From a virus (lineage: Duplodnaviria > Caudoviricetes), in IMG/VR virus record IMGVR_UViG_3300046804_003398: a stretch of 64,000 nucleotides of DNA. The stretch is one strand, 5' to 3'. A model generated the notes under the pieces. It did no database searches, was not told the DNA's origin, and was given only the letters and a program-made list of their open reading frames with translations. This document shows positions 58,036 to 58,220 of the stretch, in pieces. Numbering within the stretch: position 1 is the stretch's first letter; each line of letters begins with the position of its first letter. The translations under genes were made by a program, and so were the position numbers.

Positions 58036-58072
58036 AAAACAAAAAACCGTTGATCTTTTCAGACCAACGGTT
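58036..58072 (-). terminator. intrinsic terminator (3:4 helix of putative attenuator)
   Basis: AACCGTTGGTC-TGAAAA-GATCAACGGTT (11 bp, one G:U) followed by TTTTGTTTT. Confidence 0.92.
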
Positions 58073-58104
58073 ACTTGAGTTTTCGCAAATAGCAACCATC
58101 GGTC

Positions 58105-58161
58105 TCAGGTCAAACTAGGTTGACCCGCTACGGACAATGATGGTTGTAGACTGTTACGCAT
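58105..58161 (-). CDS. putative attenuator leader peptide MRNSLQPSLSVAGQPSLT
   Basis: 18-codon ORF whose stop abuts the antiterminator strand; codon content mirrors the downstream tRNA set. Confidence 0.75.
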   Translation of the reverse strand: MRNSLQPSLSVAGQPSLT

Positions 58162-58220
58162 ACAACAATATATATCATCGAAATTTGAAAAAGTGAAGAA
58201 AAATTGCATATCAACGCATA

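What the first reader, a model, noticed from the sequence alone, without database searches (positions are those of the whole stretch)
58036..58175. Candidate phage-encoded ribosome-mediated attenuator that senses the tRNAs of its own downstream tRNA array
Seen (minus strand): an 18-codon ORF ATG CGT AAC AGT CTA CAA CCA TCA TTG TCC GTA GCG GGT CAA CCT AGT TTG ACC TGA (58161-58105). Segment 1 CAACCATC (58146-58139, inside the Leu-Gln-Pro-Ser codons) pairs 8 bp with segment 2. Segment 2 GACCGATGGTTG (58104-58093) starts immediately after the stop codon and can instead pair 11 bp (two G:U) with segment 3 AACCGTTGGTC (58072-58062). Segment 3 otherwise pairs 11 bp with segment 4 GATCAACGGTT followed by a U-tract (terminator). 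Established: this is the 1:2 / 2:3 / 3:4 geometry of trp/his-type attenuators, where a stalled ribosome frees segment 2 and allows read-through. Seen: codons 4-17 encode only S, L, Q, P, V, A and G, which are exactly the seven non-Met amino acids carried by the 16 tRNAs downstream. CTA, CAA, CCA, TCA, TTG and GTA match the array anticodons TAG, TTG, TGG, TGA, CAA and TAC exactly; AGT, GGT and GCG match by standard wobble. Those seven amino acids own 30 of 61 sense codons, so 14 in a row is about 5e-5 by chance, before correcting for choosing the window post hoc. Inference: a multi-tRNA sensor that turns on phage tRNA transcription when any of those charged tRNAs is depleted, for example by host anti-phage tRNases or starvation. 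Classical attenuators sense one or two amino acids and control biosynthetic operons; I do not know of a described one controlling a phage tRNA array. Caveat: a separate sigma70-like promoter (57986-58013) lies between the terminator and the tRNAs, so attenuation may govern only the late or extra transcript.
Basis: partly seen in the sequence, partly recalled or inferred. Interest (0 to 1): 0.97.

Follow-up and report, generated by a model that had tools for sequence, protein, structure and literature searches.

The report
Leader-peptide attenuator before phage tRNAs
A freshwater jumbo phage places a tiny translated "test strip" and a switchable transcription stop in front of its tRNA genes, and the codons in each strip match the tRNAs encoded behind it; this looks like a ribosome-read feedback control of tRNA supply, which I could not find described.

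Summary

**Element in the window.** On the minus strand at 58174-58036 there is a -10 box, an 18-codon ORF that starts where transcription should start, an inner hairpin, and an intrinsic terminator. A 15-bp alternative helix overlaps the stop codon and competes for the terminator's 5' arm.

**Relatives.** I fetched 52 related loci, giving 36 distinct versions in about 6 lineages.
- All 33 complete versions keep an ORF in the same frame.
- The stop codon always sits in or beside the antiterminator strand.
- Antiterminator and terminator arm co-vary: cognate pairs score -14 to -24 kcal/mol, swapped types -4 to -12.

**Transcription.** Contigs from 8 metatranscriptome runs begin about 12 nt below the ATG. 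They run through the terminator into the tRNA array.

**Second module.** Related genomes carry a paralogous module in front of a second tRNA array (His, Arg, Glu, Trp, Asn, Tyr, Phe, Lys, Ile, Thr, Cys). Its leader, MRVHYTNIKRWDTFTNCECV..., uses those amino acids and no Ser, Leu, Pro or Ala. Leader 1 is Ser/Gln/Pro/Leu/Ala/Val/Gly-rich, like its own array (Fisher p = 2.5e-7).

**Caveats.**
- A strong promoter lies between the attenuator and each array.
- Neither translation nor regulation has been shown directly.
- The codon-level match is imperfect.
- One lineage (group D) fits poorly.

The parts
58167..58197 (-). Upstream promoter: -35-like TTCACT (58197-58192), 17-nt spacer, -10 TATATA/TATATT inside TATATATT (58174-58167)
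   Evidence: Read. The -10 box is conserved in all lineages, with TTGATT/TTGAAT-type -35 boxes in relatives. The ATG lies 5-9 nt after the box in every lineage. RNA contigs are absent upstream of about 58151.
58105..58161 (-). Leader ORF, 18 codons plus TGA (MRNSLQPSLSVAGQPSLT*), leaderless or nearly so
   Evidence: An ORF in the same frame is kept in 33 of 33 complete relatives, including a +3-nt indel and 24- and 35-codon versions. The chance of such an ATG/stop geometry is 0.8-4% per lineage.
58139..58146 (-). Segment 1 (CAACCATC, the Gln-Pro-Ser codons), pairs with 58100-58093
   Evidence: It falls on the QPS codons in all lineages. Co-variation of 1:2 is weak.
58106..58127 (-). Inner hairpin (CGGGTCAA / TTGACCTG) ending in the first two bases of the stop codon; possible pause hairpin
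   Evidence: Replaced by GTCAA..CCCC/GGGG..TTGA or CTTCC/GGAAG hairpins in other lineages.
58091..58105 (-). Segment 2, antiterminator 5' strand (AGACCGATGGTTGCT), starting at the last base of TGA
   Evidence: In every lineage it spans -5 to +17 relative to the stop codon.
58061..58075 (-). Segment 3: pairs either with segment 2 (15 bp, -23.8 kcal/mol) or with segment 4 (terminator, -17 kcal/mol)
   Evidence: swap matrix and shuffles; ribosome-position scan.
58036..58072 (-). Intrinsic terminator: stem 58072-58061 / 58056-58045, loop GAAA, T-tract 58044-58036
   Evidence: Present in all relatives.
57986..58013 (-). Internal sigma70-type promoter: TTGACA, 16-nt spacer, TG-extended TAAAGT
   Evidence: Conserved in all 36 versions.
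57870..57982 (-). Conserved structured RNA of unknown function between the promoter and the first tRNA
   Evidence: No Rfam family. The core is identical in 52 loci. Compensatory pairs seen. A paralog precedes array 2.
55652..57856 (-). tRNA array 1: Val, Pro, Leu x4, Ala x2, Ser, Gly x2, Gln x2
   Evidence: The same set occurs in relatives.
55020..55438 (-). Phage tmRNA (55438-55054) and the terminator that closes the RNA operon (55042-55020)
   Evidence: (119.8 bits).

Best explanation
This is a ribosome-mediated (leader-peptide) transcription attenuator that gates read-through from an upstream promoter. The regulated unit is an operon of translation-support RNAs: a conserved structured RNA, tRNA array 1 and a tmRNA.

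Proposed steps:
1. Transcription starts at or within about 3 nt of the AUG, so the mRNA is leaderless, as is usual in this phage.
2. A ribosome translates the 18-codon leader.
3. If it reaches the last 3-4 codons or the UGA in time, it covers segment 2. Segment 3 then pairs with segment 4 and transcription stops.
4. If it is held up anywhere in codons 2-14, segment 2 is free and pairs with segment 3 (15 bp). The terminator cannot form, and RNA polymerase runs on into the tRNA genes.
5. The leader is built from codons for the amino acids whose tRNAs lie downstream, so the likely signal is shortage of those charged tRNAs. That would give feedback control of tRNA supply.

Shown here: the anatomy, its conservation and co-variation, the reciprocal match between leader and array in two paralogous modules, and a transcript that starts near the ATG and reads through in environmental RNA.

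Inferred: that the leader is translated, that stalling drives read-through, and that tRNA availability is the signal.
For: - ORF kept in 33/33 (module 1) and 10/10 (module 2) versions although the nucleotide sequence is largely unalignable between lineages.
- The ATG always lies 5-9 nt after the -10 box, and the stop codon always lies in or within 6 nt of segment 2. Per lineage this geometry arises in 0.8-4% of shuffles.
- Segment 2 co-varies with the terminator arm. Cognate pairs score -14 to -24 kcal/mol and non-cognate types -4 to -12; shuffle z-scores run from -2.4 to -7.2. There is a three-way change in L069.
- In constraint folding of the nascent RNA, the antiterminator forms for every P-site position except the last 3-5 codons (leader 1) or the last 8-9 codons (leader 2).
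- Leader/array reciprocity in G002. Leader 1 has 10 residues exclusive to array 1 and 1 exclusive to array 2. Leader 2 has 0 and 20. Fisher p = 2.5e-7.
- At codon level, leader 1 scores 9-12 of 16 on array 1 (the higher figure is against the window's fuller array) and 1/16 on array 2. Leader 2 scores 16/24 on array 2 and 3/24 on array 1.
- The same reciprocity is seen in G003 and in the L008/L067 contig.
- Gln is CAA in leader 1 (array 1 has Gln-UUG) and CAG in leader 2 variants (array 2 has a candidate Gln-CUG).
- Substitutions between relatives stay inside each array's amino-acid set. In leader 1: S/A/V/L, Q/L. In leader 2: K/R, N/H/K/Q, C/R, N/D, C/Y, E/R.
- In 8 of 8 metatranscriptome runs, contigs end at 58133-58151, none covers 58152-58249, and contigs run unbroken through the terminator and internal promoter into the tRNAs.
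- The lack of a Shine-Dalgarno sequence is normal here: only 6 of 43 long ORFs have one.
Against: - A near-consensus promoter lies between the terminator and the array in every relative, so the switch can only add to constitutive transcription.
- There is no ribosome-occupancy or end-mapping data. Contigs cannot give termination efficiency, and DNA carry-over cannot be fully excluded.
- The codon-level match is partial. G002 leader 1 uses TCA/TCC, yet no Ser-UGA tRNA was detected there. Some leader 2 versions use AAA where only Lys-CUU was found.
- Group D carries 18 extra N-terminal codons rich in Thr, Phe, Tyr, Asn and Asp, with no such tRNAs in the visible array. Its overall enrichment is not significant: P = 0.19 against array 1's seven amino acids, and 24 of 34 against about 64% expected for its own larger array by my own count (array).
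- Groups C and E are only weakly enriched (P about 0.03-0.04).
- RNA-structure constraints (CAACC, GTCAA, CCC/GGG arms) shape many codons and confound the composition test.
- The 1:2 helix is not better with its own partner than with foreign ones. In several versions 2:3 outcompetes 1:2 even without a ribosome.
- Variable sites in leader 1 are not biased towards third codon positions (5/10/7).
Confidence: 0.6

Rival explanations
1. The attenuator is real and ribosome-read, but it reports general translation capacity rather than the array's own tRNAs. The signal could be leaderless initiation or the speed of any elongating ribosome. On this view the leader composition is a frozen accident plus RNA-structure constraint.
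For: Any stall in codons 2-14 gives antitermination in the folding scan. Group D's extension and the first 2-3 codons of every leader are not array-cognate. Many codons lie in helices. The strict codon match is only 9-12 of 16-17.
Against: Two paralogous modules have reciprocal compositions that match their own arrays (p = 2.5e-7), and this holds in three genomes. Substitutions stay inside each set. The rare residues Trp, Cys and His occur only in the leader whose array holds those tRNAs.
Confidence: 0.2
2. This is a stand-alone small gene (a ~115-nt sRNA and/or a 17-35-residue peptide) with its own promoter and terminator. The alternative pairing is incidental and nothing downstream is regulated.
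For: It has its own promoter and a strong terminator. The array has its own promoter immediately after. The element folds well as a unit (z = -4.9).
Against: Co-variation of segment 2 with the terminator arm across four sequence types has no role in a plain terminator. The peptide sequence is not conserved as a protein. The element is always tied to a tRNA array, twice per genome. Read-through RNA exists.
Confidence: 0.12
3. This is a nascent-peptide arrest sensor (SecM/TnaC/Erm-leader type). The conserved Q-P-S motif would stall the ribosome in response to a small molecule or antibiotic, and that stall would drive antitermination.
For: L/S-Q-P-S is the most conserved part of leader 1. Pro-Ser is kept although the codons switch between CCA TCA and CCT AGT.
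Against: These codons are themselves segment 1, so their conservation is explained at RNA level. QPN variants exist. Leader 2 has no such motif yet has the same architecture. No known arrest motif is present.
Confidence: 0.05

Closest known systems
Leader-peptide transcription attenuators of amino-acid biosynthesis operons (trpL, hisL, leuL, thrL, pheL, ilvL)
   Same: A short leader ORF, a terminator (3:4), a mutually exclusive antiterminator (2:3) and an upstream partner for segment 2 (1:2). The stop codon is placed so that a terminating ribosome masks segment 2. The leader codons point to the operon's product.
   Different: It is encoded by a phage. The regulated genes are RNA genes (tRNAs, tmRNA) rather than enzymes. 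There is no run of one regulatory codon: the leader is a mixed strip of 7 (module 1) or about 13-15 (module 2) amino-acid types. The mRNA is leaderless with no Shine-Dalgarno sequence. An internal promoter follows the terminator. 1:2 is weak relative to 2:3.
pheM leader / pheST attenuator (aminoacyl-tRNA synthetase operon of E. coli); from my own knowledge
   Same: Ribosome-mediated attenuation used to adjust a component of the translation apparatus according to charged-tRNA availability.
   Different: It senses one amino acid (Phe) and controls a synthetase, not the tRNA genes themselves. It is not phage-borne.
T-box riboswitches
   Same: A terminator/antiterminator switch that reads tRNA status and controls genes of the tRNA-charging pathway.
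   Different: A T-box binds uncharged tRNA directly, has no ORF, and carries a specifier loop and a conserved T-box sequence. Rfam finds no T-box here. Here the read-out would be made by the ribosome.
Phage tRNA clusters (T4, T5, large myoviruses); from my own knowledge
   Same: Arrays of tRNAs with interspersed stable RNAs, transcribed from host-type promoters and processed by RNase P.
   Different: I know of no leader ORF/attenuator described for them. Four full-text searches returned none. The nearest cultured relatives by terminase have only 1-3 tRNAs.

Membership tests
Leader-peptide (ribosome-mediated) transcription attenuator | Short ORF inside the 5' leader transcript, conserved as an open frame | tested here: met
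   18 codons in the window. The frame is kept in 33/33 and 10/10 relatives. Geometry arises by chance in 0.8-4% of shuffles per lineage.
Leader-peptide (ribosome-mediated) transcription attenuator | Intrinsic terminator between the leader ORF and the regulated genes | tested here: met
   12-bp stem plus T-tract at 58072-58036. Present in all relatives.
Leader-peptide (ribosome-mediated) transcription attenuator | Antiterminator helix mutually exclusive with the terminator, supported by co-variation | tested here: met
   15 bp, -23.8 kcal/mol. Block-diagonal swap matrix over four sequence types; z from -2.4 to -7.2. Module 2 likewise.
Leader-peptide (ribosome-mediated) transcription attenuator | Stop codon placed so that a terminating ribosome covers segment 2 | tested here: met
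   Segment 2 spans -5 to +17 (module 1) or -18 to -6 (module 2) relative to the stop codon. The folding scan agrees.
Leader-peptide (ribosome-mediated) transcription attenuator | Anti-antiterminator (1:2) that enforces termination without translation | tested here: inconclusive
   1:2 is in the MFE of the full transcripts. It is no better with its cognate than with foreign partners, and is often outcompeted by 2:3 in the nascent RNA.
Leader-peptide (ribosome-mediated) transcription attenuator | Regulatory codons that correspond to the product of the regulated genes | tested here: met
   Reciprocal leader/array match in two modules, p = 2.5e-7, seen in three genomes. The codon-level match is partial, and group D is a poor fit.
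Leader-peptide (ribosome-mediated) transcription attenuator | Translation of the leader and translation-dependent read-through demonstrated | not testable with these tools
   Only RNA contigs are available. They show a 5' end near the ATG and read-through RNA, but not ribosome occupancy or regulation.
T-box riboswitch | Specifier loop and conserved T-box sequence / Rfam RF00230 match | tested here: not met
   No T-box hit at E <= 1 in 54500-59000.
Known Rfam leader or sRNA family | Covariance-model match | tested here: not met
   Nothing on 58036-58175 at E <= 1.

The most novel reading that the evidence does not exclude
Each large tRNA array of this phage lineage has its own "codon test strip". 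This is a leaderless mini-ORF that samples roughly one codon per tRNA species encoded downstream. The ribosome's transit time over the strip, read by a terminator/antiterminator switch, sets how much extra tRNA, tmRNA and accessory RNA is transcribed. That would be a virus-encoded, ribosome-read homeostat of tRNA supply, able to answer host tRNA depletion or cleavage array by array.
Probability: 0.5. Interest if true: 0.92.

Novelty: new variant of a known kind. Interest (0 to 1): 0.85.

Why it matters
Leader-peptide attenuation is a textbook mechanism, but it is known for enzymes of amino-acid metabolism and a synthetase operon. It is not known for tRNA genes or for a virus.

If it works as inferred, it shows three things:
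- Phages do not merely carry tRNAs but regulate them on demand.
- One ribosome-read switch can integrate many codons at once.
- Separate arrays are monitored separately.

That bears on how phages cope with host codon mismatch, host shut-off and tRNA-cleaving defence systems. It also gives a compact natural part for sensing tRNA availability.

The two paralogous modules supply a built-in specificity control. This makes the idea directly testable in a defined transcription-translation system, even though the host is not cultured.

Tried and rejected
- **Cultured phages.** blastn of the region against cultured phages found no match. The window's own assembly is not held, and G001 does not cover the region.
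- **Late-promoter idea.** I tested whether TATATATT is a phage-wide late-promoter motif. It is not enriched (4 found, 3.5 expected).
- **Formal pair counting.** The MAFFT alignment of all lineages is out of register for groups A and E. I therefore used alignment-free duplex swap tests instead of the count of structure pairs.
- **Equilibrium folding.** In the full transcript with a stalled ribosome, the local terminator often still wins. This test is too harsh because it ignores the order of synthesis, so I replaced it with nascent-transcript folding.
- **1:2 swap test.** It gave no specificity.
- **Group D as a co-variation case.** It gains Lys, Glu and Ile codons together with Lys, Glu and Ile tRNAs. 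The extension also holds many unmatched codons and is not significant.
- **Array 3 of G002.** There is no attenuator, only a terminator, a 63-codon ORF and a promoter.
- **Stop-codon read-through.** In the window the leader frame stays open for about 75 codons past its TGA, but group B has TGA TGA, so I dropped the idea.
- **Metagenome records behind L035/L031.** They could not be reached to extend group D's array.
- **Pfam scan of neighbouring proteins.** No hits. The 1008-residue neighbour has no phage match.

Full report
**What is in the window.** All features are on the minus strand.
- The 234-codon gene ends at 58276 and is followed by its own terminator (58245-58221).
- Next comes TATATATT (58174-58167), then an 18-codon ORF (58161-58105, MRNSLQPSLSVAGQPSLT*).
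- An inner hairpin (58127-58106) runs into the stop codon.
- An intrinsic terminator follows (stem 58072-58045 plus T-tract).
- Segment 1 (58146-58139) pairs with 58100-58093.
- Segment 2 as a whole (58105-58091, beginning with the A of TGA) can instead pair over 15 bp with 58075-58061. That stretch contains the terminator's 5' arm. This helix scores -23.8 kcal/mol against -17 for the terminator.
- The stretch folds far better than shuffles (z = -4.9).
- Downstream lie a near-consensus extended -10 promoter (58013-57986) and a ~110-nt conserved RNA without an Rfam family.
- After that come 13 tRNAs for Val, Pro, Leu, Ala, Ser, Gly and Gln, a tmRNA and a terminator.

**Relatives.** The phage is an uncultured freshwater jumbo myovirus, with portal, large terminase, sheath and baseplate genes. 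Its nearest cultured terminases are 52-57% identical.

I used the flanking protein and the invariant core of the downstream RNA as anchors. This fetched 52 loci and 36 distinct versions of the upstream region. They fall into about six lineages:
- A (the window)
- A'
- B (many members)
- C
- D
- E

Between lineages, the sequence from the -10 box to the terminator is largely unalignable.

Despite that, every complete version (33 of 33) has an ATG 5-9 nt after the -10 box. That ATG opens a 17-35-codon frame that ends in or next to the strand able to pair with the terminator's 5' arm. A' differs from A by a 3-nt insertion that keeps the frame. Under dinucleotide shuffling, such ATG/stop geometry appears in 0.8-4% of trials per lineage.

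**The switch co-varies.** The terminator arm has four unrelated sequences in the family: CCGTTGGTC, CCCGTCA.., CCCCACCTATC and CCCATCAGA. In each case the stretch at the stop codon is its complement.
- Cognate segment 2 / segment 3 duplexes score -14 to -24 kcal/mol. Combinations across types score -4 to -12.
- Shuffles of segment 2 give z from -2.4 to -7.2.
- Segment 2 always spans about -5 to +17 relative to the first base of the stop codon.

I folded the nascent RNA (segment 4 not yet made) with a 27-nt ribosome footprint placed at each codon. The antiterminator forms for every P-site position except the last three to five codons, where the ribosome hides segment 2. The full-length free RNA has 1:2 plus the terminator as its ground state.

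The 1:2 helix is the weak point. It is present, but it is no better with its own partner than with foreign ones, and 2:3 often beats it.

**Is it transcribed as required?** Twenty-four riverine metatranscriptome runs hold part of the region. I laid eight of them on the window.
- In all eight, the contig that covers the leader ends physically at 58133-58151 (five times at 58149). No unmatched extension follows.
- Nothing covers 58152-58249.
- The upstream gene's contigs stop at 58250-58278.

DNA carry-over would not leave that hole. It is what a start at about 58160-58163 would give, allowing for the usual loss of the extreme 5' end.

The same contigs run unbroken through the terminator and the internal promoter into the conserved RNA and the tRNAs, so read-through molecules exist. 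Loose ends from B-type strains show the same. Contigs give no quantities.

**No Shine-Dalgarno sequence.** This is not a problem here. Only 6 of 43 long ORFs in the window have one, and many start a few bases after a TATTTAT motif.

**What does the leader read?** In the window, 14 of 17 residues after Met belong to the seven amino acids of the array. The background is 44% (P = 1.4e-3). The other two frames of the same bases give 7-8 of 18. Group B leaders give 12-15 of 16. Groups C and E are weaker (P about 0.03-0.04), and D is not significant.

Within group B, variable codons drift among Ser, Ala, Val, Leu, Gln and Pro, with few exceptions. Variation is not concentrated at third positions (5/10/7), so the peptide is not conserved as a protein.

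Because many codons sit in helices, this alone would not decide the matter.

**The decisive comparison.** The complete relative G002 (295,831 bp) has three tRNA arrays.
- Array 1 is the one studied here.
- Array 2 holds His, Arg (ACG and UCU anticodons), Glu, Trp, Asn, Tyr, Phe, Lys, Ile, Val, Thr and Cys. Some relatives add Asp, Gly, Thr-UGU and a candidate Gln-CUG.
- Array 3 has no attenuator.

Array 2 is preceded by the same kind of module:
- a TATATATT box
- an ATG 5-6 nt later
- a 25-codon ORF
- an inner hairpin
- a terminator
- one or two promoters
- a paralog of the conserved RNA

Its leader is MRVHYTNIKRWDTFTNCECVDGDIV. It contains Trp, two Cys, His, Tyr, Phe and both Arg codon classes (AGA and CGT), and no Ser, Leu, Pro or Ala.

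Counting residues exclusive to one array's set:
- Leader 1 has 10 for array 1 and 1 for array 2.
- Leader 2 has 0 and 20 (Fisher p = 2.5e-7).

By strict decoding rules:
- Leader 1 matches array 1 at 9-12 of 16 codons (the higher figure is against the window's fuller array) and array 2 at 1 of 16.
- Leader 2 matches array 2 at 16 of 24 and array 1 at 3 of 24.

The pattern repeats in G003 (leader 1 MKNSLQSSLLVLAGQPSLT, leader 2 MQVVCKHDIKRDWYNTTFTRKGGR) and in the L008/L067 contig.

Among leader 2 variants, all replacements at codons 2-19 stay inside array 2's set: K/R, N/H/K/Q, N/K, C/R, N/D, C/Y, E/R and G/C.

Leader 2 has the same logic. Segment 2 is its last six codons, 11-13 bp complementary to the terminator arm. 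L069 shows a three-way compensatory change. The folding scan gives antitermination for P-sites in codons 1-16.

**Mechanism proposed.** Transcription from the upstream promoter gives a leaderless mRNA.
- A ribosome that runs smoothly to the end of the mini-ORF masks segment 2, and the terminator stops transcription.
- A ribosome delayed on any earlier codon leaves segment 2 free to capture segment 3, and the polymerase continues into the RNA operon.

Each leader is composed of codons for the tRNAs behind it. The simplest reading is therefore negative feedback on the supply of those charged tRNAs, host plus phage, with the tmRNA co-regulated in module 1.

The anatomy, the co-variation, the reciprocity and the transcript ends are shown. 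Translation, stalling and the identity of the signal are inferred.

**Weaknesses.**
- Every module has a strong promoter between terminator and array, so the switch can only modulate an additional stream of transcripts. It could also matter only at a stage when that promoter is off.
- The codon-level match is incomplete.
- Group D's N-terminal extension is not array-like.
- RNA-structure constraints confound composition statistics within one module.
- All lineages share ancestry, so the per-lineage probabilities are not independent.

**Comparison with what is known.** It works like the trp/his class of leader-peptide attenuators and meets their structural criteria (see the membership table). 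It differs in four ways:
- It is viral.
- It controls tRNA and tmRNA genes.
- Its mRNA is leaderless.
- It uses a mixed multi-amino-acid strip rather than a run of one codon.

It is not a T-box and matches no Rfam family. Four full-text literature searches found no attenuator described for phage tRNA arrays or tRNA operons. That library is incomplete, so this is absence of a hit, not proof of novelty.

**Verdict.** I rate it a new variant of a known kind, of high interest.

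Noticed in passing
window 57870-57982 (-): A ~110-nt structured RNA lies directly after the internal promoter. Its 27-nt core is identical in 52 loci and it matches no Rfam family. 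5 of 17 predicted pairs show compensatory changes. A paralog occupies the same place before tRNA array 2 in relatives (L058, L061-L071). Function unknown; it appears to belong to the attenuator-array module.
   Followed up: partly
L058 (G002:197800-202600, read on the minus strand) about 880-1040; also L061-L071: A second, paralogous leader-peptide attenuator precedes tRNA array 2 (leader MRVHYTNIKRWDTFTNCECV..). The window's own genome probably has it beyond base 64000, which I could not read.
   Followed up: yes
window-wide; examples upstream of most long ORFs: Only 6 of 43 long ORFs have a Shine-Dalgarno-like motif. A TATTTAT motif sits a few bases before many start codons, so near-leaderless mRNAs seem to be the rule in this phage.
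   Followed up: partly
L058 oriented 1525-1600, 2880-3005, 3105-3207: Array 2 of G002 holds a tRNA with an oversized anticodon loop (read as ctct, or as Gln-ctg with a 3-nt insert). It also holds an Asn-GTT tRNA with a 51-nt insert and a Phe-GAA tRNA with a 30-nt insert.
   Followed up: no
window 58104-57880 (-): In the window the leader's reading frame stays open for about 75 codons past its TGA, across the terminator, promoter and conserved RNA. This is not so in group B (TGA TGA), so it is probably chance.
   Followed up: partly
window, 37 long ORFs; leaders in all loci: Stop-codon use in long ORFs is TAA 28, TGA 9, TAG 0. Leader 1 ends in TGA in 33 of 33 versions, where the TGA is part of segment 2. 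Leader 2 mostly ends in TAG.
   Followed up: no
The Rfam scan of 54500-59000 at E <= 1 reported no RNase P family in that stretch.
   Followed up: partly
window 58263: In one RNA run the upstream gene's contig ends at 58263 joined to Illumina adapter sequence. That is 13 nt after the stop codon and before the terminator hairpin. It may be a processed or trimmed 3' end.
   Followed up: no
L056 / L035 (group D): In this lineage array 1 is fused to a Lys, Glu, Met, Ile(UAU), Leu set that forms a separate third array in G002. There is no tmRNA within 5.5 kb, and the leader is 35 codons long.
   Followed up: partly
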